Origin: Treponemataceae bacterium
GTDB taxonomy: Bacteria; Spirochaetota; Spirochaetia; Treponematales; Rectinemataceae
DNA length: 64,000 nucleotides
Reading direction: 5' to 3'
Assembly: GCA_963667725.2 (NCBI GenBank)
Contig: CAXXHO010000003.1
Span: 480,001 to 544,000 of the forward strand
Each line of letters opens with the position of its first letter. The first letter of the stretch is position 1. The position numbers and the translations under genes are program-made. This document shows positions 9,608-33,025 of this stretch, piece by piece. The notes under the pieces were generated by a model, which worked only from the letters and a program-made list of their open reading frames with translations, did no database searches and was not told where the DNA came from.

Positions 9608-11146
9608 TTGAAGCGGCTACAGAAGATTTTATCGAGCAAGGCGAACCTGGTGTTCTTCGCGATGCTCATCCAGCTGGCGATCCTCGTAGCTGGCCTCATC
9701 GCGTTCATGGATTCCTTCTATATTTTTTATAGTTTGAGCATCGTGTTGAGCTTTGCCGTCGTCCTATGGATTCTCAACGACACGAGCAATCCCGCGTATA
9801 AGATAGCCTGGCTCATCCCGATTCTCGTCTTCCCCATTTTTGGAGGAATCTTCTATCTCTTTTTCGGCAAGATTCGCCTGAGCGGGAAAATGAAGCAGCA
9901 GATCAAGGAAGGCGAAAAATGGGTGCGTCCGCTGACGACGCGGGGGAGCGAGGACCTCAGGAGACTGGAATCCCTGAATATTGACGCCGCCATGCAGTCG
10001 CGCTATCTCAGCGTCAACGCCAGGAACCCGGTCTGGACCCATACGGCCTCAGAATATCTTCCCAGCGGGGAAATAGCCTTTGCGCGCATAACCGAAGCGC
10101 TGAAAAAGGCCGAACATTTCATATTCATCGAATTCTTCATCATCGGGGAAGGCCGGATGTGGGAGACCATCCTCTCCATCCTCGCGGAGAAGGCGAAGCT
10201 GGGCGTGGACGTGCGCGTCATGTACGACGATTTCGGCTGCCTCGGGCGATTGCCGTCCAACTATGAGAAGCGGCTGGAAGCCATGGGCATCAAATGCGCG
10301 GTCTTCAACCTGCTCAAGCCCCTTCTCTCCGCCAGCTACAATCACCGCGATCACCGGAAGATCCTGGTGATAGACGGCAGGGTGGGATTCACCGGCGGCA
10401 TAAATCTGGCCGACGAGTACATCAACGAATTCCCTCGATTCGGTCACTGGAAGGACAACGCCATCATGCTGGAAGGGGATGCCGTGGCCAGCTTCACGTC
10501 CATGTTCCTCAAGCTGTGGAGCTTCGCGAGGCGGAAGCATGATGACGACCTGCGGTACGAAATCTTCCCCCAGGAAGGATGGCCCGTCTTGGAATCCGAC
10601 GGATTCGTCCAGCCCTACGAGGACAGCCCCCTGGACTCTGAACTTGTCGGGGAAAATGTCTACCTGAATATCATCGGCAAGGCAAAACGATATCTCTACA
10701 TCACGACGCCTTACCTCATCATCGACAACGAAATGCTGATGGCGCTCACCCTGGCCGCGAAGAACGGACTGGATGTCCGCATCATAACTCCTCATATTCC
10801 CGACAAATGGTATGTCCATGCCGTCACCCGCGCCAACTATCGCGCGCTTGTCGCCGGCGGCGTGCGGATCTTCGAGTATCTGCCCGGTTTCATCCATTCG
10901 AAGACCTTCGTGGCGGACGATATTTTCGGCACTGTGGGCACCATAAACCTGGATTTCAGGAGCCTCTACCTCCATTTTGAATGCGGCGTCTGGCTTTACG
11001 GCTGCAGAAGCCTTTTTGCCATGCGCGACGACTTTCTCGCCACCTTGGGGAAATGCCAGGAAGTGACCATCGCTGAGCTCGATGCCATTAAAATTCATCG
11101 CAAGGTTGCCGGCTGGCTGCTGAAGGTCTTTTCGCCCTTGCTCTAA
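9608..11146 (+). CDS. cls: Cardiolipin synthase
   Basis: N-terminal TM segments and two HKD motifs (DHRKILVIDG, HSKTFVADD). Confidence 0.95.
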   Translation: MKRLQKILSSKANLVFFAMLIQLAILVAGLIAFMDSFYIFYSLSIVLSFAVVLWILNDTSNPAYKIAWLIPILVFPIFGGIFYLFFGKIRLSGKMKQQIKEGEKWVRPLTTRGSEDLRRLESLNIDAAMQSRYLSVNARNPVWTHTASEYLPSGEIAFARITEALKKAEHFIFIEFFIIGEGRMWETILSILAEKAKLGVDVRVMYDDFGCLGRLPSNYEKRLEAMGIKCAVFNLLKPLLSASYNHRDHRKILVIDGRVGFTGGINLADEYINEFPRFGHWKDNAIMLEGDAVASFTSMFLKLWSFARRKHDDDLRYEIFPQEGWPVLESDGFVQPYEDSPLDSELVGENVYLNIIGKAKRYLYITTPYLIIDNEMLMALTLAAKNGLDVRIITPHIPDKWYVHAVTRANYRALVAGGVRIFEYLPGFIHSKTFVADDIFGTVGTINLDFRSLYLHFECGVWLYGCRSLFAMRDDFLATLGKCQEVTIAELDAIKIHRKVAGWLLKVFSPLL

Positions 11147-24563: not shown

Positions 24564-24647
24564 TTCAACCTGACTCGGCTATTGTCACAGTTTGTGCTTC
24601 TGGGTTATGCCCAGCACAAACTGTGACAATGTACGCCTCACAGGTTA
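24564..24647 (+). other. Truncated attC-like palindrome
   Basis: ttcaacctg...caggtta with a perfect 18-bp inner inverted repeat (24581-24598/24613-24630); R boxes missing. Confidence 0.6.
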
Positions 24648-25149
24648 GATGATGGCTCCTTCATGAATCTGAACCTCCACCTTGTCGAATTCCACGTTTG
24701 CGAGCACCTTTCTCAGTTCCTCGATATCTTCGTATTCCAGGGTCATTGCTGCACCTCCCCGCAACTTGCCACGGGCTAGTTCGTTGGTGAAAAGGTAGGC
24801 GCGGCTGCCGTAAATTAAGGTACTGACATGGTTCGTTTCAATCAATCATCCCTTGTTTCCTCCAGAAAGTATACAAGATTGATACATACTGGAGGAGAAT
24901 GTGATTAAGTTGCATCTTGTGAATATGGAAGAACTCAAAGACTATTACTCAATCAAGGTATGAGTAATAGTTCGCCGGCAGAGCCATCCGCTTCATTATG
25001 CCGAGATTCTGCCGAAATATAGTCAATTTCTTCAAGTTTTCGGTGCGTTTTTCCTCGATATTTTTCTACCATTGAAAAATGCTTCTGTACTCCAATGTTC
25101 CGAATACTCGGTACTTGAAAATATATACCTTGATAATGGAACATTCGGT

Positions 25150-25395
25150 ATGGCCAGCTCAAATTCCAAACTCATCGCGGCGTTCACCCAGTCCCCTGTT
25201 ATGCGTTCTCGGGATCTTGTGAAAGCCGGCATTCCTCGCATCGAGCTGTCGCGTGCCCTGGCCGCGGGACAGATTCGGAAGCTTGTTCGTGGGATCTATT
25301 GCCTGAAGGATTACCGACCAAGCGAGCATGGTGATCTCGCCCTCATCATAGGGAAGGCAATAGGTCATCTATGGACTGTACTAGCTTATCTTTGA
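25150..25395 (+). pseudogene. Truncated AbiEi-type (type IV TA) antitoxin
   Basis: RSRDLVKAGIPRIELSR...RKLVRGIY N-terminal wHTH; ends after about 80 aa; no AbiEii partner. Confidence 0.7.
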
Positions 25396-25569
25396 TGCCG
25401 CTGGAGTATGGACCACGATTCGATCTTTCTTCGGAACAGGCTTCTTCTTTACGGTTGTCACCGTCATCGAGATAATGGCTCCTTCATGAATCTGAACCTC
25501 TACCTTGCCGAATTCAACATTGGCGAGCGCCTTCCTCAGTTCTTCAATATCTTCGTATTCCAGGGTCAT
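25381..25569 (-). CDS. Small YezD/DUF2292-like protein
   Basis: LANVEFGKVEVQIHEGAI pattern; GAGGAG RBS; two decayed copies nearby. Confidence 0.6.
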   Translation of the reverse strand: MTLEYEDIEELRKALANVEFGKVEVQIHEGAIISMTVTTVKKKPVPKKDRIVVHTPAASKIS

Positions 25570-25596: not shown

Positions 25597-27072
25597 TTAA
25601 TTTGCCAGCAACGAAACCCGCTTCGCTTTACCCAGATTCTGTACGAAACTCGCTAGTTTTCGCGCATTTTCTACCCGTTCTTCTTCGGGTATGTGCTCCT
25701 CATCGAAGGATATCCCCGTGCTCCAACGCTCAGGCGTGGTCCGTGGACTCGTTGATGTTGGAGAGGCTTGCATGAGCGAGAGGATCTCCTGGATGTTCTT
25801 CGTGAAGCTTATGAACGTGAAGGACCACTGTCGTTTCTCAAGAGGCGTCTCTTTCGGCATACGCTTCTGAGCGAACCAGAGTTCCCGCCAGTTCTCGAAG
25901 TAGTAATCCACCGCGCGCTGCGCGAGTGTGTTGTTCTTCCCTAAGGCTTCATAAAGCTCCTTTGCCGCGTGGTTTGCCCGTTCATCAGGAAGGAGCGTGA
26001 TCCCCGTCACTTGATTGTACTTTCTGAACCAATAGCCGGCGATCTTGAATTGGGGGAGTTCCGAAAAGATGATGGGCTCATTTGCCGACGCCCCGCGGGA
26101 TGAAGTCTCTTGGATTGGAGTCTGATCCTCACACGCGCGCGTCTTCTCTTCTTCTGCTTCTTTATATGAGTCTATATATGCAGGCGTGACATCGTGTGAC
26201 ATGTCACAAAACGGGAGGCGTGACGTCACGCGTGACATGTCCGTGACATCGACCGTGACATCGACCGTGACAGGGGGCGTGACATCAGCCGTGACATCGG
26301 GTGTGACATCAGCCGTGACATCGGGTGTGACATCGGATGTGACATTGGCTGTGACATTAGGCGTGACATTAGGCGTGACATTAGGCGTGACATCGGCGGT
26401 TCTTTCTCCCGATGCATCATGATCCTGAGGTTGCGTTCCTGCGAGCGCCTTCCTGCGTTCCCGCTCTCGCCGCTTGCGTTCGAGTGCGGAGGAATCACCA
26501 CCATCGGATGCAAATTGCCGCTTCTCCCATCCATGGATCCGGAACTCGTCCTGCTCGTCCGTCTCAAGCAGACCGGCGCCTTTCAACTGGGTGAGCGCTG
26601 TCTCGACCGCCCCGCCATCCATCCGCAGAAAAAAAGCAAGGTCTTCATTACCAGGCAGATAGCCTTCCCTGCCTTCTTCCTTCACGATGCACAGGAGGTT
26701 GATCCACGTCTTGAACAGGTCGCCGGGGAGCCGTTGTACCTTCGGATCGTTGTACAGCTCGACATACAGGCGAAGCCATCCGTAGGAAGCGCCATTCTGC
26801 CGCTCTTCCCAGTTGTGGATACACCAGGCACCTTCAGGATCGACATCAAGAAGCTTTGCCTCGTGAAGTCTTTCAAGGGCCAGCCTGGCTGCTTCTGGCT
26901 CCTTCCTGAGGTAGTACGCGATATCCTCGAGTGGCGGAAGCCGCCCGCTCGTGTCCTTGTTCTTCGCGATGCACAAGAGGTTTATCCATGTCTTGAACTG
27001 CTCTCCCGATACTCTCTGAACCTTTGGCTTGTTCGGAATATCCGTGTAGAGTCTGAACCATGGCTGTTGCAT
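25597..27072 (-). CDS. Phage-type replication initiator with a duplicated N-terminal domain
   Basis: WFRLY...PKVQ...FKTWINLLCI occurs twice, then ERKRRERERRK and a repeat linker; ATG at 27072 after AAGGAG. Confidence 0.8.
   Translation of the reverse strand: MQQPWFRLYTDIPNKPKVQRVSGEQFKTWINLLCIAKNKDTSGRLPPLEDIAYYLRKEPEAARLALERLHEAKLLDVDPEGAWCIHNWEERQNGASYGWLRLYVELYNDPKVQRLPGDLFKTWINLLCIVKEEGREGYLPGNEDLAFFLRMDGGAVETALTQLKGAGLLETDEQDEFRIHGWEKRQFASDGGDSSALERKRRERERRKALAGTQPQDHDASGERTADVTPNVTPNVTPNVTANVTSDVTPDVTADVTPDVTADVTPPVTVDVTVDVTDMSRVTSRLPFCDMSHDVTPAYIDSYKEAEEEKTRACEDQTPIQETSSRGASANEPIIFSELPQFKIAGYWFRKYNQVTGITLLPDERANHAAKELYEALGKNNTLAQRAVDYYFENWRELWFAQKRMPKETPLEKRQWSFTFISFTKNIQEILSLMQASPTSTSPRTTPERWSTGISFDEEHIPEEERVENARKLASFVQNLGKAKRVSLLAN
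26243..26392. repeat. 13 GTGACA units at exact 12-bp period; putative iteron origin
   Basis: GTGACA at 26243, 26255, ... 26387, plus off-register copies (26186-26237) and an AT-rich patch near 26160-26180. Confidence 0.85.
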
Positions 27073-27130
27073 ACGACGCTCCTTCTCTCTTTCCGTTCCT
27101 TCCGTTACCGTCTCCGAAATTGACCCTTGC

Positions 27131-27775
27131 CTACGCCACAGCGGCGATTGCCCCGTTTGAAATCCTTCCCTTGAGCTCACCAATCAACTCGCCAAGTTTC
27201 GCCCCCAAATCCTCGACCGCTGTGTATGCCATGAGTTCGTCCTGGATCACTTCGAGTTTTCCGATGAGTTCCCGGATCCCCTGCGGCACCTGATCACCCT
27301 CTGATTCCCTCGCATCACTTACCGCCGGCACCGGATCGTCATAGGGACGCATCGTCTCGGGTTTTGCCGAAACCGTCTCACGAGGGAAGGGCTGTGGCCC
27401 TGGGAAAGGCTTCTTCGTCTCAGCTCTGCCTGCGTTTGTCTCACCTCTGACTTCGATCCGTACTTTTACAGGCGCCTCGATGACCTGGGGATTGTCCACG
27501 AAGGCCAACACTTCCTGAGGGCCGTGTTTCGTACTCTCCACTTTGACGAGGGAGAAGAGGATCTCCTTCGCCTGGGACTTCCGGTACTCGATGGCCGCGA
27601 CGGTATTGTCCCACTCGAAGCATTTGTGGAGTTCGGAGTTCTTCTTCAAGTACGCTTCCTGAACCAGATCCTTCGGCCGTACCGACGCCCCGCCGATTGT
27701 CAGGATCTCGCGCGCGATCGCCTGAGGGTCCGCCTTCTTCGCTAGGGGGGAGTCCTCTTTCCACTTGTACACCAT
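27131..27775 (-). CDS. Conserved phage-type protein downstream of the RAMP-like gene and RNA
   Basis: ELHKCFEWDNTVAAIEYRKSQA motif recalled from phage hypothetical proteins; AAGGAG RBS. Confidence 0.7.
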   Translation of the reverse strand: MVYKWKEDSPLAKKADPQAIAREILTIGGASVRPKDLVQEAYLKKNSELHKCFEWDNTVAAIEYRKSQAKEILFSLVKVESTKHGPQEVLAFVDNPQVIEAPVKVRIEVRGETNAGRAETKKPFPGPQPFPRETVSAKPETMRPYDDPVPAVSDARESEGDQVPQGIRELIGKLEVIQDELMAYTAVEDLGAKLGELIGELKGRISNGAIAAVA

Positions 27776-27787
27776 TCACTACTCCTT

Positions 27788-27927
27788 ACTGTGTTTCCAC
27801 AGTGCCGTCTGATGCCACCTTGCAGGGAGATCCCCTTCAAGGCCATTCTTTGCCGGGCATATGACACGCCCAACCGCGCCTCGCCATGACTAGCAAAACC
27901 TCGCCGGACCAAACCTTTACCTATCTG
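27788..27927 (-). ncRNA. Putative guide RNA: GGY-NN pentamer tract plus 3' hairpins
   Basis: Minus strand reads GGTAA-A-GGTTT GGTCC GGCGA GGTTT TGCTA GTCAT GGCGA GGCGC GGTTG GGCGT GTCAT, then CCTTG...CAAGG and ACTGTG-GAAA-CACAGT hairpins. Boundaries approximate. Confidence 0.72.
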
Positions 27928-28548
27928 CTACTTTGAAGATTCTTCTGTTTTGTTGGCCGACTCGATGGCCACATGGAAACAGCCGAACTGACCATCGCAC
28001 TCCGGTCTCCATTCCCCCACACCGACACCGAATCCCGCCAGGTTGAACAGGTTTACGAGCTGTTCGAGGCTGATCTTGTCCGCGTTGAACCGTACCCGCA
28101 CTGACGTCGTCCATGTCCTGAACTCAGGTCGATAGCGTATGTCGGCGACGCCCATGCCGACGCGGACCGTGTCCTCCCTCATCGAAGGCTCGCCCTCGAT
28201 GGCGACGAGATCGCTTCCGTTCTCTCCATCGATGAAGAAGGATCCCCGGAGCTCCGTCATCTTCATGCCTTCGGCGAACCGTCCGCCGGCGGATACCGCG
28301 GCAGCCTTGAACCCGATAGCGGGGAAGCCATAACGCCCGTCCGGAAGACGGTAGAACGATGCCTGGTATTCCTCTTCCGGATCCTTGGCAACTCGTGCGT
28401 TTTTGGCTTTCTTCATCTGCTTGTCGAGCATGGCTTTCTTAACCTTCTCGCTCCATGCATGGACGATGAGGGGTGTATCCCCGATGATGCGGATCTCGGT
28501 GTATTTGACGTTGATCGGTTTGATTTCGATGACTTCAAGATTTGCCAT
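27928..28548 (-). CDS. Solo Cas7/RAMP-like protein
   Basis: IRIIGDTPLIVH (RAMP beta1-like), FPAIGFKAA (Csm3/Cas7 PxxxxKGa-like) and a C-terminal G-rich loop AGFGVGVGEWRP..GQFGCFHV. Confidence 0.75.
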   Translation of the reverse strand: MANLEVIEIKPINVKYTEIRIIGDTPLIVHAWSEKVKKAMLDKQMKKAKNARVAKDPEEEYQASFYRLPDGRYGFPAIGFKAAAVSAGGRFAEGMKMTELRGSFFIDGENGSDLVAIEGEPSMREDTVRVGMGVADIRYRPEFRTWTTSVRVRFNADKISLEQLVNLFNLAGFGVGVGEWRPECDGQFGCFHVAIESANKTEESSK

Positions 28549-28966
28549 GTACGTACTCCTTTGACTTTTCTGTCTTCTCTTTAATCCAGGAAACGGGGAT
28601 CGCCCCGCGGTATAGGTACCAATGGGAACCGTCGGAATGCCCCGCGAGATTGAACAGCATGAGATCCATGGGGCTCATGTGGAAGATCATGCGGGCAGCC
28701 GTATTCCATGGAACCACGCTTGAACCTTCTTGGATCTCGATCGTGAAGCGAACCTCCGTGCGGTCACCGCACTTTCCCGTCAGGTTCGTCGCCCAGTGTT
28801 GAGCGGTGAACCTGGGATCATCGGTGAGCCAGAGATAGCCGCGGAATACCCTGGATCCGTCTTTGTAGGGGAGGTACACGCCGCCCACGGCTATTCCTTC
28901 CCGTACTATCCCTTTTGCGCATTCGCGGTTCGTAAAATGGTACAGCTTCACTCTTTCTGCCTCCAT
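28535..28966 (-). CDS. Small ADP-ribosyltransferase-fold-like phage protein
   Basis: KLYHFT...IVREGI...LWLTDD...WYLYRGAIP pattern; fold assignment is inferred. Confidence 0.5.
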   Translation of the reverse strand: MEAERVKLYHFTNRECAKGIVREGIAVGGVYLPYKDGSRVFRGYLWLTDDPRFTAQHWATNLTGKCGDRTEVRFTIEIQEGSSVVPWNTAARMIFHMSPMDLMLFNLAGHSDGSHWYLYRGAIPVSWIKEKTEKSKEYVHGKS

Positions 28967-29039
28967 CAGGCACCCCTCTCATGATGGTGTCATGATCCGT
29001 CATGACAGCGTCATGATTCACTTCAGTTTCATCTCTTCC

Positions 29040-29294
29040 TCAAAACGGGATATCATCATCGCCAGCTGCGTCAGGAGCTGTGGGTACGGAATTCTCACGA
29101 GGGAACCATGCTTCGATGAAATAGAGCGGGAATTTGCCGCCTTCGACATACTTTTCATTCTTCACGAGCCGGCAGAAAAGCTTCTCCCCTGCAGGCAGAT
29201 TGATACCGATATCGCTCTCGATTTCTCCGGAGACCGAAACGATCTTTACTCCATTCTCTTCTTTCACCTTCTTCCACAGCGATCCTATCCTCAC
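29040..29294 (-). CDS. DUF736-like/SSB-like small protein
   Basis: RIGSLWKK...SGEI; acidic DDDIPF SSB-type tail; AAGGAGG RBS. Confidence 0.7.
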   Translation of the reverse strand: MRIGSLWKKVKEENGVKIVSVSGEIESDIGINLPAGEKLFCRLVKNEKYVEGGKFPLYFIEAWFPRENSVPTAPDAAGDDDIPF

Positions 29295-29318
29295 CTCAAA
29301 CCTCCTTTACTAACGTCA

Positions 29319-30537: not shown

Positions 30538-31472
30538 AGCGCCTTGTCCTTCGGAAGTCCGGCAGTGAGCGCCTCGCCGGGATCCTCAGCACACGGGGCG
30601 GTATCCGTCCCTGCAGGTGCAGCATCGTTCGCCTGTCTGGGTTCCGGATCTTCCAATGCCTCGATTTCGCGCGAGAGTTCGTCGATCCTGCGTTCCACCC
30701 GTTCTTTCTTCTTGTATTCCCCGGAGAGTTCCTTCTTGGCGCGCTCAAGACGCTCTTCGTCCGTTTCCGCTTCCCCCGGATCGAAGCGGGGATCGATTAC
30801 TTTCTTCTGTCGGCAAACCGCCTTGATCTGTTGGATCGAGCATCCCTGGTTCGCCATAGCGGCCGCGTGGCTCATGTCCTCGCCCTGGCTCACGATCGCT
30901 TCCACGAGGGAAGGCGAGCCCGCGGTCTCGACATTGCTCAACGCGACGTTGTGCTGCGCTTTGACGAGGTTCTGGGCGTGGTTCCTTGGGATCCGCGCAT
31001 GACGATCGAGGAAGTCCTCCAAGCGGGCGCCCTTTTCCTGGGAGAGGGTCTCCATCTCGGCGATTGCTTGCCCTAGCTTTCTATTGAGTTCGTTCTGCTG
31101 CCGCTGAAGTTCGAGGATCTCTTCACGTTTCGCCTTCAGCGCTTCGTCCTCGAGGTAGGGATCCACATAGACACCGGCTTCGATCGCCAGCTTCAGAAGG
31201 GAGTGGAAGAGCGCCCAGAAGGCGATCGAGTGCGCGTTCCTTCCTGAGACGAGATTGCGGGTATGTGCAAGGTGGTGCGTAAACTCGTGGAGGGCGGTAT
31301 ATATGAGAGCGTTGTCGTTCGTGAAATTCTTGTTGTGAAGGACGATCGAGGCGAGGGCAGGCTTGTAGAGGCCGTTCACCCGGCAGGAGGCTTTTCCTGA
31401 GAACACGAGGGTGAAGTCCGGACAGGGAACCTTCAAAGAAAGAAGCTTCTCCTTCACCTGATCCTGGTTCAT
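30534..31472 (-). CDS. HExxH (SprT-like) metallopeptidase-domain protein
   Basis: VNGLY...ALHEFTHH...AHSIAFW, followed by coiled coil. Confidence 0.75.
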   Translation of the reverse strand: MNQDQVKEKLLSLKVPCPDFTLVFSGKASCRVNGLYKPALASIVLHNKNFTNDNALIYTALHEFTHHLAHTRNLVSGRNAHSIAFWALFHSLLKLAIEAGVYVDPYLEDEALKAKREEILELQRQQNELNRKLGQAIAEMETLSQEKGARLEDFLDRHARIPRNHAQNLVKAQHNVALSNVETAGSPSLVEAIVSQGEDMSHAAAMANQGCSIQQIKAVCRQKKVIDPRFDPGEAETDEERLERAKKELSGEYKKKERVERRIDELSREIEALEDPEPRQANDAAPAGTDTAPCAEDPGEALTAGLPKDKAL

Positions 31473-33025
31473 ACGGTTGCCTCCGCAATCGTCGTATCGC
31501 GGGCACTTTCATCGTTAGGAATCTCGTCTTCAGTGGCATCGTCAGCATCATCGTTTTCGCCGGGGGCGCCCCGCGGGTCGATATCGTCTGCGGTCAGGCC
31601 GTAGGCTCCGGCGATCTCCTCGAGGAGCGGGGCGGTCTCGATTCCCGCGGCTGTGGCTCCTTCAACGAGAGAGCGATCGACGCCTGCGCTGTACTGGTTC
31701 ACTTTCGTATGGATCCCGAAGGCGAAGACGAGAAGAAGCCGCTCGAGGCTTCCCCGGTAGAGCGTCTCCAGGTGGTTTTTCAGGAAGGTGTTGTTATAGT
31801 CCGGATCCTCCCATCCTTGGAGCTTCGTGATCCGGCTCTGGCCGTCGAAGCCAAGGCTCTTCCATATCTGAAGGAGCGAACGCCTGAGGAGAGGCAGGGA
31901 AATCCCTTCCTCTTCATGGAAGGAGCCCATGATCCCTTCGTAGAGCCCCAGGGCGTATTCATTCCTCGCCTTCTCGATCTTCTTCTCCCGGGCTCGCGCT
32001 TCCTTCTTCTCCCCCGGGGGTTTTACGTAGTCTTTCTTCTTCCCCCAGGTGAGGCGCCCGGGCTTGTTTCCTCCGACGACGAGGACTCGAACCGCACCTT
32101 CATCCTTCTTCCTGCACTCAGTCCACTCGTGAGGCTCAAGGGCATCCGCCCGGTGCTCTCCCGAATAGCCGTCCATAACCTCAAGGTGTTCGATCCCTTC
32201 AAGCTCCGCCTGCTTCCCTCCGATGAACGCCTTCTCCTTCGCCTCGAAGCAGGTCTTGTCGGCGCAGCAGTCCTTCTTGCCGAGTTCCGCGAAGAGCTGT
32301 GGTTCGGCGCCGGTCCGTTTTGAGCAGGAAGAGCATGGCCCCGCGGCAGGCAGGAGATCGGCATCATGAAGCTTCCAGGCTGCCTGGGAGAGTTCCATGA
32401 GGATCTCGTGCCTGATCTGTTCATCGAAGGCCTTGATCGAAATCGGCCAGGGGCGGTCGAGGATCTTAAGCGCCGCCTTCTGCTGCTCAGAAGGGAGCCG
32501 GGCGATGAGGTTTGCATGCCCCGCCGAGAGCTTTCCTCCGGCGAGAAGATTCCTGGCCGCGGGAACGAGCTTCCGAAGCCTCAGGCGCTGATAGACATAG
32601 ACGACGGAGCGGCCGAGCTCCTTCGCGATGGACTCGATCTCGTAGTGCCCTTCCTCGATGAGCCTATGGAAGCCTTCGGCCTCATCGAGCGGATGGATGT
32701 CTTCCCGCTGCAGATTTTCGATGAGCTGGATATGAAGTGCGGCTGCGTCATCGAGATCGCGGACGATACAGGGGAGGGTGGAAACCCCGGCGAGTGAAGA
32801 GGCCCTCCACCGGCGCTCCCCGGCGATGAGTTCGAAGTTCTCGCCCGCGGGGCGTACAATGGCCGGCTGCTGGACGCCGATCGAGCGGATGCTGTCGGCG
32901 AGCTGCTCGAGTTTCTCCTTGTCGAACCCGCCGACACTTCGGTTCTTTGGAGAGGGTACAATCTTCTCGAGCGGGATATGATGGATTCGATCGTTCATGG
33001 GATCACTCGATTCTTCCGTTTTCAT
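31469..33025 (-). CDS. ParB/RepB/Spo0J-family protein
   Basis: LADSIRSIGVQQP, IAGERRWRAS, IENLQREDI and an HTH. Confidence 0.92.
   Translation of the reverse strand: MKTEESSDPMNDRIHHIPLEKIVPSPKNRSVGGFDKEKLEQLADSIRSIGVQQPAIVRPAGENFELIAGERRWRASSLAGVSTLPCIVRDLDDAAALHIQLIENLQREDIHPLDEAEGFHRLIEEGHYEIESIAKELGRSVVYVYQRLRLRKLVPAARNLLAGGKLSAGHANLIARLPSEQQKAALKILDRPWPISIKAFDEQIRHEILMELSQAAWKLHDADLLPAAGPCSSCSKRTGAEPQLFAELGKKDCCADKTCFEAKEKAFIGGKQAELEGIEHLEVMDGYSGEHRADALEPHEWTECRKKDEGAVRVLVVGGNKPGRLTWGKKKDYVKPPGEKKEARAREKKIEKARNEYALGLYEGIMGSFHEEEGISLPLLRRSLLQIWKSLGFDGQSRITKLQGWEDPDYNNTFLKNHLETLYRGSLERLLLVFAFGIHTKVNQYSAGVDRSLVEGATAAGIETAPLLEEIAGAYGLTADDIDPRGAPGENDDADDATEDEIPNDESARDTTIAEATV

What the first reader, a model, noticed from the sequence alone, without database searches (positions are those of the whole stretch)
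29100..29135. The guide's dinucleotides decode to a variant of the element's own SSB-like gene
Seen: the NN string is AA TT CC GA TT TA AT GA GC TG GT AT. Read as NNx it aligns with codons aaa ttc ccg ctc tat ttc atc gaa gca tgg ttc cct (KFPLYFIEAWFP) of ORF 29040-29294: 7 of 12 dinucleotides exact, 17 of the first 22 nt. The skipped base is the wobble position, and the guide can spell K-F-P-D-F-Y-I-E-A-W-V, where PD-aromatic resembles the DUF736 motif as I recall it. A hand binomial gives about 4e-7 per site, about 0.05 over both strands of the window; this is post hoc and only suggestive. The RNA is sense to the mRNA, so it would pair with template DNA. Inference: the true target is the homologous gene of a competing relative, with self mismatched.
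Basis: partly seen in the sequence, partly recalled or inferred. Interest (0 to 1): 0.88.

Follow-up and report, generated by a model that had tools for sequence, protein, structure and literature searches.

The report
Phage VIPR guide aimed at rivals
A prophage carries a recently described VIPR RNA-guided silencing system. Its single guide RNA spells, two letters per codon, a conserved stretch of a small replication-region gene as it reads in rival phages, while the prophage's own copy of that gene is mismatched.

Summary
The 12 dinucleotides come from a GGY/NN pentamer tract at 27861-27921 (minus). Read as NNx, they match codons KFPLYFIEAWFP at 29100-29135 at 17/24.

Alone, that self match is near chance: shuffled guides reach it in 35-46% of trials for 12 units and 4.6% for 11 units.

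The locus is a VIPR system (2026 preprints):
- a Cas7-like Vipr protein that matches the solved SUSP1 Vipr;
- a conserved accessory gene;
- one vrRNA.

Homologues of the 84-aa gene match the guide better than self, always at the same codons:
- 19/24 in a second prophage of the same genome;
- 20/24 and 21/24 in VIPR-less viral contigs.

No shuffled guide reached 20 (0 of 20,000). A 97%-identical relative in metagenome contigs has one guide-letter change, which makes 22/22 over the first 11 units.

The gene has an SSB-type DDDIPF tail. No OB fold and no Pfam DUF736 hit were found.

Verdict: a new member of a known kind, with a clear natural target and a co-resident prophage pair to test. Expression and silencing are not shown here.

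The parts
27861..27921 (-). vrRNA repeat tract. It has 12 GGY-like triplets (8 canonical GGY, plus TGC, GTC, GTC and a first GGT followed by an extra A), alternating with the 12 NN guide dinucleotides. Units 1-11 match targets; unit 12 (AT) matches no allele.
   Evidence: It is one of only 3 windows in the 4.22-Mb genome with >=7/11 GGY at 5-nt period. In a 97%-identical relative, TGC reads GGC and GGT reads GGC, so the scaffold is kept.
27790..27860 (-). Possible 3' tail of the vrRNA. Predicted hairpins include a 6-bp stem with a GAAA loop just before the vap ribosome-binding site. The extent is uncertain.
   Evidence: The fold of the tail alone is not better than shuffles (z -1.29). No Rfam family matches. 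The ends are not mapped.
27928..28548 (-). vipr gene, 206 aa, a Cas7-like RAMP.
   Evidence: phrog_4652, E 1.5e-38. PDB 36pp_D 'SUSP1 Vipr protein', E 1.6e-7. AF2 model pLDDT 83.3, with top Foldseek hits to Csm3/Cas7 at prob 1.0. 115 relatives in IMG/VR.
27131..27775 (-). Candidate vap (Vipr-accessory) gene, 214 aa. Its N-terminal ~95 aa are conserved.
   Evidence: tblastn finds the N-terminal domain next to vipr in 55 of 80 IMG/VR loci, mostly directly downstream. phrog_15946, unknown function. No Pfam family.
28535..28966 (-). 143-aa gene between the target-family gene and vipr. It is part of the cassette only in the two prophages of this genome. Function unknown.
   Evidence: hits only in the own-genome loci (L081 and L093 at the second prophage, L094 the window's own copy), and in 0 of 80 Vipr loci. 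No Pfam or PHROG family.
29040..29294 (-). 84-aa gene of the family the guide is aimed at. It has a beta-rich ~65-aa domain, a disordered linker and an SSB-type C-terminal tip, DDDIPF.
   Evidence: D81, P83 and F84 are invariant in 15 sequences. No fold match. No Pfam family.
29100..29135 (-). Self copy of the target site (KFPLYFIEAWFP). It is mismatched to the guide at units 4, 5, 6, 11 and 12 (17/24).
25597..27183 (-). Replication-initiator / replisome-organiser gene, downstream in the same direction. In VIPR-less relatives it lies within about 1.2 kb downstream of the target gene.
   Evidence: PF09681 and phrog_3926. Synteny.

Best explanation
Window 27131-28966 (minus strand) is a VIPR cassette in the replication module of a prophage. 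It comprises a 143-aa gene, vipr, one vrRNA and a vap-like gene.

Inferred from the published SUSP1 and P. fulva systems: Vipr protomers line up on the GGY triplets of the vrRNA and present the NN dinucleotides. These pair with double-stranded DNA while skipping every third base, and the bound complex blocks transcription.

Shown here by sequence comparison: the guide spells codons of the conserved motif K-Y-P-D-F-Y-I-E-A-W-V near the end of the folded domain of a small SSB-tail gene, as that gene reads in rival relatives. These rivals include a second prophage in the same genome. The carrier's own allele (K-F-P-L-Y-F-I-E-A-W-F) is mismatched in three consecutive central units.

Inferred: in rivals the target gene heads the operon that runs into the replication initiator. 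Binding there would therefore shut down the rival's replication genes and favour the carrier, which is spared.
For: System identity.
- Vipr matches the solved SUSP1 Vipr, with the GGY-contact residues kept. SUSP1 H17/R138/D177/W178/R179 align with H30/R140/E179/W180/R181 here. All five are invariant or >=90% conserved in 25 relatives (residue roles from 10.64898/2026.04.26.720927, Results).
- The model has a Cas7/Csm3 fold.
- GGY/NN arrays accompany the gene in 72 of 80 IMG/VR loci, nearly all on the gene's strand.
- A vap-like gene is present in 55 of 80 loci.

Target.
- The guide's best NNx hit in the whole 4.22-Mb genome is 19/24, at the homologous codons of the second prophage's 82-aa gene.
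- Nulls for that hit: >=19/24 in 4/1000 shuffles on the 64 kb around it, and 19/22 in 0/1000. Genome-wide, 19/22 is reached in 6/300.
- In the 10 further fetched loci that carry a homologue (L082, L084-L092), the best hit is the homologous site. Scores are 17-21/24.
- The 21/24 match (87.5%, above the published >=80% cut-off) is unmatched by 20,000 shuffles over the 7 alleles.
- All hits are wobble-aligned. Read positions are more conserved than skipped ones: 0.88 and 0.86 against 0.64.
- The 97%-identical relative has a single NN change, and it gives 22/22 over 11 units.
- The best-matched phage records carry no Vipr and no GGY array on 21-38 kb.
Against: - No perfect target for the window's own guide was found. 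Searched: viral, genome and metagenome contigs, and 69 family genomes.
- With all 12 units, the co-resident prophage site is 79%, just under the published cut-off. Its genome-wide significance is then weak: >=19/24 in 84/300 shuffles.
- Database-wide, chance hits of similar score exist. L096, an unrelated gene, scores 20/24 by my reading.
- PDFY-type alleles are related to each other, so they amount to about one independent observation. The conditional test (5 of 6 changed letters move toward the guide) gives p about 0.018.
- By the 11-unit count the self site is 77% and the self-like allele L084 is 82%, so the margin between self and target is small.
- The variant guide rests on contigs from one study.
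- Expression, processing, RNP formation and silencing are not shown for this clade. It is only distantly related to the tested type II systems.
Confidence: 0.8

Rival explanations
1. Coincidence. The guide has some other, unsampled target (for example a satellite or an unrelated phage), and its likeness to the 84-aa gene family is a chance best hit inflated by post hoc reading.
For: - The self hit alone is at chance level.
- With 12 units, the genome-wide best of 19/24 is reached by 84/300 shuffles.
- An unrelated viral gene scores 20/24.
- A second exact-core hit, L083, looks random.
Against: - 0 of 20,000 shuffles reach 20 on the 7 alleles, and 0 of 3000 reach 21 on 53 kb of relatives' loci.
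- The window-best and genome-best hits fall on homologous codons of paralogous genes.
- All hits are in frame, with the skip at the wobble position.
- The only NN change in a near-identical relative completes the match.
- The core pattern read backwards finds nothing in the viral collection, against 2 hits for the real one.
Confidence: 0.08
2. Autoregulation. The guide is meant to bind its own element's imperfect site at 29100-29135. This would throttle the operon that contains the 84-aa gene, the VIPR cassette and the replication initiator, for example to keep the prophage quiet.
For: - The self site is the best hit in the window and lies upstream in the same transcription direction as vipr and rep.
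- By 11 units it is 77%, close to the 80% cut-off.
- Mismatch tolerance of this clade is unknown.
Against: - Three consecutive central units are mismatched (4 of 6 letters), as is unit 11.
- Rivals' alleles match better.
- The variant guide moves away from self (16/22) and toward rivals.
- The discovery preprint reports no self hit at >=80% for the vrRNA sets it checked against their own contigs (P. fulva clade, types III and V) (Methods).
Confidence: 0.08
3. Relic. The array is a decaying vrRNA that once targeted this gene family but no longer works.
For: - Three of 11 triplets depart from GGY (TGC, GTC, GTC), and the first unit has an extra base.
- Relatives carry cleaner arrays of 9-11/11.
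- No RNA data exist.
- The window's guide is one letter further from the best target than its relative's guide.
Against: - vipr and vap are intact and conserved.
- The discovery preprint notes frequent internal degeneracy of vrRNAs.
- The relative's differences restore or keep GGY rather than erode it.
- The NN letters still give 21/24.
Confidence: 0.04

Closest known systems
VIPR systems, type II, of Escherichia phage SUSP1 and the Pseudomonas fulva prophage (bioRxiv 10.64898/2026.04.26.720920, Results and Methods read; 10.64898/2026.04.26.720927, Results part 1 read)
   Same: - A Cas7-like Vipr with the same GGY-contact residues.
- A vrRNA of GGY/NN pentamers (12 here; 9-16 published).
- The one-base-skip code, aligned to codon wobble.
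- An adjacent accessory gene and a phage/prophage carrier.
- Targets in competing mobile elements, and no strong self target.
   Different: - The protein is only distantly similar: E 1.6e-7 over the last 73 residues.
- There is a single vrRNA, placed between vipr and vap.
- No tail like the published conserved tail/pseudoknot was recognised.
- The accessory gene has no recognised DNA-binding domain.
- The type (I-VII) could not be assigned, because the data tables were not available to me.
- Nothing was tested experimentally for this clade.
VIPR guides that read near-invariant codon positions of an essential rival gene (10.64898/2026.10.15.759431; abstract, one Methods section and search passages read)
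   Same: The guide is wobble-aligned on a conserved protein motif, so synonymous changes cannot escape it. Read positions are more conserved than skipped ones.
   Different: The target here is a small SSB-tail gene at the head of a rival phage's replication operon, not a satellite recombinase. One rival is a co-resident prophage with its own VIPR.
VIPR loci with staggered, head-to-tail vrRNA arrays (Fig. S18 legend of the discovery preprint)
   Same: The nearest Vipr relatives in IMG/VR (50-66% identity) carry long pentamer arrays punctuated by GGCAGGC.
   Different: The window and its sister prophage each have one short tract, without that punctuation in the window.
Class 1 CRISPR backbone proteins (Csm3/Cas7)
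   Same: The fold: Foldseek prob 1.0, E 2.7e-6 to Csm3 chains. Both use a thumb plus G-loop RNA-binding mode, according to the preprints.
   Different: There is no CRISPR array and there are no other cas genes. The repeat is 5 nt with 2 read bases, rather than 6 nt with 5.
Bacterial SSB C-terminal tip (acidic DDDIPF peptide; recalled from general knowledge)
   Same: The 84-aa family ends in D-[DE]-D-[IY]-P-F after a disordered linker.
   Different: No OB fold was recognised, and the folded part is only about 65 aa. ssDNA binding is not shown.
Pfam DUF736 (PF05284)
   Same: An ESM Atlas neighbour cluster (score 0.92) has DUF736 on 23% of its members.
   Different: The Pfam model does not hit 5 of 5 members at E<=10. 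This is a lead only.

Membership tests
VIPR system | Vipr protein: a minimal RAMP (RRM core, thumb, G-loop) related to Cas7 | tested here: met
   AF2 model pLDDT 83.3. Top Foldseek hits are Csm3/Cas7 chains at prob 1.0, with 66 hits at E<=0.001.
VIPR system | Sequence kinship to an experimentally defined Vipr, with the GGY-contact residues kept | tested here: met
   PDB 36pp_D 'SUSP1 Vipr protein', E 1.6e-7. H17, R138, W178 and R179 are kept, and D177 is replaced by E. These columns are invariant or >=90% conserved in 25 relatives.
VIPR system | vrRNA of 9-16 tandem GGY/NN pentamers, with conserved GGY and variable NN | tested here: met
   12 units, 8 of 11 canonical. 72 of 80 related loci have arrays with variable NN. 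The relative's changes keep GGY.
VIPR system | Conserved structured 3' tail capping the repeat tract | tested here: inconclusive
   Hairpins are predicted, but the tail alone folds no better than shuffles (z -1.29). The tails of the two prophages differ.
VIPR system | Adjacent accessory (vap) gene | tested here: met
   The N-terminal domain of the 214-aa gene lies next to vipr in 55 of 80 loci. Which of vap1-6 it is could not be told.
VIPR system | Natural target obeying the one-base-skip rule at >=80% NN match, in another mobile element, wobble-aligned | tested here: met
   21/24 (87.5%) in provirus contig L082=L087, and 20/24 in L085-type contigs, all in frame. Null: 0 of 20,000.
VIPR system | No self target at >=80% NN match | tested here: met
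   The best self hit is 17/24 = 71% (17/22 = 77%).
VIPR system | vrRNA is expressed, bound by Vipr, and silences transcription of the target | not testable with these tools
   No RNA run holds the stretch.
Pfam DUF736 (for the 84-aa target gene) | Match to the PF05284 model | tested here: not met
   0 families for 5 of 5 members at E<=10. The Atlas neighbour with DUF736 on 23% of members is only a lead.
SSB family (for the 84-aa target gene) | OB-fold ssDNA-binding domain | tested here: inconclusive
   No Foldseek hit at E<=0.001. The best VIA-align Z is 3.6, and OB domains appear only at E 3-7. The model pLDDT is 75.
SSB family (for the 84-aa target gene) | Acidic C-terminal tip ending in D-D-D-I-P-F after a flexible linker | tested here: met
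   Read directly: DDDIPF in the window. D81, P83 and F84 are invariant in 15 sequences, and the linker has pLDDT <50. The motif as an SSB hallmark is recalled, not taken from a call.

The most novel reading that the evidence does not exclude
The VIPR cassette and a resistant allele of its own target gene sit side by side and travel together as a 'weapon plus immunity' haplotype. The cassette is inserted directly downstream of the SSB-tail gene. Its guide reads the rival (PDFY) version of that gene. The carrier's version is recoded at three central codons.

In this very genome the system would act inside one cell. Prophage A's guide sits on prophage B's copy (19/22), upstream of B's own VIPR and replication initiator. 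On co-induction A would therefore silence both B's replication and B's weapon.
Probability: 0.25. Interest if true: 0.65.

Novelty: new member of a known kind. Interest (0 to 1): 0.45.

Why it matters
VIPR was described only in 2026, and natural targets are known for few clades. This locus offers several things:

- A clean natural example outside the tested type II systems: one guide, one target motif, and a graded series of alleles (17 to 22 of 22-24 letters). That series could calibrate how many mismatches the system tolerates.
- A single genome holding both attacker and likely victim prophages, so the conflict can be tested by induction without any engineering of targets.
- A caution for the field. 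The self match that drew attention was at chance level, and an unrelated gene reached 20/24. Target calls need family context and shuffled-guide controls, not the 80% rule alone.

Tried and rejected
- Rfam (gathering thresholds) finds only tRNAs in the window and nothing on the tract.
- My first ideas were a TRAP-like ring-protein site or a G2N3 quadruplex. I dropped them once the VIPR literature and the PDB match were found.
- No perfect target was found. The exact NNx core in viral contigs gave 2 hits: one homologue and one random-looking (L083). Units 1-9 gave one hit in an unrelated gene (L096). 69 family genomes gave 0 hits at <=3 mismatches. Genome contigs gave no relatives of the 84-aa gene. 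Cultured phages gave no relative of the 82-aa gene.
- The second prophage's guide (TA GC TA CG AG AT TT AA AA AT AG) found no target: nothing >=19/22 in the genome or in any fetched locus, nothing in three rival records, and no exact 9-unit hit in viral contigs.
- No RNA holder was listed for the stretch, so expression could not be examined.
- Fold searches for the 84-aa protein gave no clear match.
- The VIPR type could not be assigned. The supplementary PDF of PMC13142463 holds methods and legends only, and the data tables (data S3, S4) were not available. They may list this clade.
- The relative's own allele at 29100-29135 could not be read, because the table of differences was cut.
- Other skip lengths (periods 2, 4, 6) gave 16/24 at best in the window.

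Full report
WHERE THE GUIDE IS

The finding gives only the target coordinates. A scan for the twelve dinucleotides at any fixed spacing found them once, at 5-nt period, on the minus strand at 27917..27861. The tract lies 10 nt after the stop of a 206-aa ORF (27928-28548, minus). It lies 85 nt before the start of a 214-aa ORF (27131-27775, minus). It reads GGT-A-AA GGT TT GGT CC GGC GA GGT TT TGC TA GTC AT GGC GA GGC GC GGT TG GGC GT GTC AT. Rfam has no family for it.

CHECKING THE OBSERVATION

Read as NNx, the string aligns with aaa ttc ccg ctc tat ttc atc gaa gca tgg ttc cct at 29100-29135 (minus). These are codons KFPLYFIEAWFP of ORF 29040-29294.
- The match is 7 of 12 dinucleotides, 17/24 letters, and 17/22 over the first eleven units.
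- The skipped base is the wobble position.
- It is the best NNx hit in the window; the runner-up scores 16/24.

Shuffled eleven-unit guides reach 17/22 in 46 of 1000 trials. With all twelve units, shuffled guides reach 17/24 in 184/400 and 140/400 trials. Taken alone, the self match is therefore not beyond chance.

WHAT THE ELEMENT IS

The 206-aa protein belongs to phrog_4652 and has 115 relatives in IMG/VR.
- In 72 of the 80 loci fetched, arrays with at least 6 of 11 GGY triplets at 5-nt period lie near the gene. Nearly all are on its strand, with variable NN.
- The whole 4.22-Mb genome has only three such windows at >=7/11. One is a coding tandem repeat.

Notes of this scan on other genomes pointed to the VIPR preprints. 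I read the Results and three Methods sections of 10.64898/2026.04.26.720920. I read Results part 1 of 10.64898/2026.04.26.720927. I read the abstract, one Methods section and search passages of 10.64898/2026.10.15.759431. According to these:
- VIPR consists of a Cas7-like Vipr protein and vrRNAs of 9-16 GGY/NN pentamers.
- The NN letters pair with double-stranded DNA while every third target base is skipped, mostly the codon wobble base.
- Natural targets are called at >=80% NN match and lie in competing mobile elements.

MEMBERSHIP TESTS
- The protein matches PDB 36pp_D, 'SUSP1 Vipr protein', at E 1.6e-7. The residues that the cryo-EM preprint names as GGY contacts are kept (H30, R140, E179 for D177, W180, R181). 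They are conserved in 25 relatives.
- An AlphaFold model (pLDDT 83.3) hits Csm3/Cas7 chains at probability 1.0.
- The N-terminal domain of the downstream 214-aa gene accompanies vipr in 55 of 80 loci, so it is the likely vap gene.
- A structured tail could not be established.
- The type could not be assigned.
- No RNA data exist.

The guide's best NNx hit in the whole genome is 19/24 at C3:1631536-1631570. That site is the codons RYPDFYVEAWVA of an 82-aa homologue of the window's gene. It lies at the homologous position, in a second, syntenic prophage that has its own vipr and vrRNA.

Homologues of the gene were collected without regard to the site. Viral contigs gave 4 loci, metagenome contigs gave 5, genome contigs gave none, and 69 family genomes gave only the two own copies.

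In all 10 further fetched loci that carry a homologue (L082, L084-L092), the guide's best hit is the homologous site. The seven distinct alleles score as follows:

| Allele | Peptide | Score /24 |
|---|---|---|
| self | KFPLYFIEAWFP | 17 |
| L084 | KFPLYYIEAWFP | 18 |
| L088 | KFPLYYIEAWFP | 18 |
| L089 | KLPLYYIEAWIR | 17 |
| second prophage | RYPDFYVEAWVA | 19 |
| L085-type (5 contigs) | KYPDFYIEAWFP | 20 |
| L082=L087 | KYPDFYIEAWVA | 21 |

Unit 12 matches none of the alleles. Over eleven units the top score is 21/22.

Controls:
- Shuffled guides over the seven alleles never reached 20: 0 of 20,000, by either kind of shuffle.
- Over 53 kb of the relatives' loci they reached 21 in 0 of 3000 trials and 20 in 1 of 3000.
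- On the 64 kb around the second prophage, 19/24 is reached in 4/1000 and 19/22 in 0/1000.
- Genome-wide, 19/22 is reached in 6/300 but 19/24 in 84/300.
- The core pattern read backwards found nothing in the viral collection, against two hits for the real one.

AN INDEPENDENT PIECE OF EVIDENCE

Contigs of three metagenome runs of one study hold a relative about 97% identical across 27206-29300. Within and just upstream of the tract it differs at four letters:
- TGC becomes GGC.
- GGT becomes GGC.
- The first GGT becomes GGA.
- Unit 2 changes from TT to TA.

That single NN change turns the match to L087 into 22/22 over eleven units, and raises the second prophage to 20/22. It lowers self to 16/22. 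A random NN substitution would do this about once in 72 tries (my arithmetic).

CAVEATS
- PDFY-type alleles are related to one another, so they are roughly one independent observation. Given the self match, 5 of the 6 letters that differ at self-mismatched positions move toward the guide, p about 0.018.
- Database-wide, chance hits of this strength occur. An unrelated viral gene scores 20/24.
- By the eleven-unit count, self (77%) and the self-like allele L084 (82%) lie near the published cut-off.
- No perfect target for the window's own guide was found.
- The variant guide comes from one study's contigs.

CONTEXT AND LIKELY MECHANISM

In VIPR-less relatives, the target gene is followed within about 1.2 kb, on the same strand, by the replication-initiator gene. 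In the two prophages of this genome, a cassette is inserted between them: a 138-143-aa gene, vipr, the vrRNA and vap. The three viral records that carry the gene (two with the better-matched PDFY-type alleles, L085 and L087, and one self-like, L084) have no Vipr and no GGY array on 21-38 kb. Their completeness is 42-81%.

I infer that the complex sits on the rival's gene and blocks transcription into its replication genes, as shown for reporters and lambda in the discovery preprint. The carrier's allele escapes through three mismatched central units.

THE TARGET GENE

It encodes a beta-rich domain of about 65 aa, a disordered linker and a DDDIPF tip, the last being invariant in 15 sequences at D81, P83 and F84.
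- No OB fold or other fold was recognised.
- Pfam DUF736 does not hit.
- An Atlas neighbour cluster carries DUF736 on 23% of its members.

VERDICT

The self match alone is weak. The system is a new member of the published VIPR kind. The scan has found VIPR loci before on other DNA. What is new here is the target, the graded allele series, and a co-resident attacker-victim prophage pair.

Noticed in passing
window 26231-26397: About 14 copies of a 12-nt unit containing GTGACAT lie inside the replication-initiator gene (25597-27183, minus), where they encode a D-V-T-x peptide repeat. This looks like an iteron-type origin embedded in the initiator gene.
   Followed up: partly
L081 (G000:C3:1622001-1641000), vipr at 10335-10943, array about 10963-11019: This is a second, syntenic prophage in the same genome, with its own Vipr (87% identical) and a different guide (TA GC TA CG AG AT TT AA AA AT AG). 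No target was found for that guide in the genome, the fetched loci or the viral contigs.
   Followed up: yes
L001-L080, e.g. L002 3611-3800 and 4361-4500, L024 4057-4250: The nearest Vipr relatives carry long runs of pentamers punctuated by GGCAGGC every 11-13 units. These are apparently head-to-tail or staggered vrRNA arrays with hardly any tail. Several loci have 3-5 such blocks.
   Followed up: partly
phage records H1-H10 (e.g. NC_051648.1 37379-37966): 37 cultured phage records encode Vipr relatives (44% identity for the listed top hits, under 60% for all) annotated only as hypothetical proteins: 29 Mycobacterium, 6 Gordonia, 1 cyanophage and 1 Pseudomonas. They could serve as tractable models for this clade.
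   Followed up: no
L096 301-326 (IMGVR_UViG_3300047480_000212): An unrelated viral gene (…NFPEFYIEAKGV…, followed by a zinc-ribbon-like CGKCG) matches the guide at 20/24 in frame. This probably shows that the 80% rule alone gives false targets in very large collections.
   Followed up: partly
window 24645-24845, 25381-25569 (minus) and 25072-25395 (plus): Two small DUF2292 genes flank an AbiEi-antitoxin-like gene just past the replication gene. This may be a defence or addiction module at the prophage edge.
   Followed up: no
window 28535-28966 (minus): A 143-aa gene sits between the target gene and vipr. It is found only in the two prophages of this genome (76% identical) and in none of the 80 other Vipr loci. 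It has no family assignment.
   Followed up: partly
window 31469-33025 (minus): A 518-aa ParB-like protein (ParB_N plus HTH_ParB) lies in the prophage early region. It is conserved in the second prophage and in L084 and L089.
   Followed up: no
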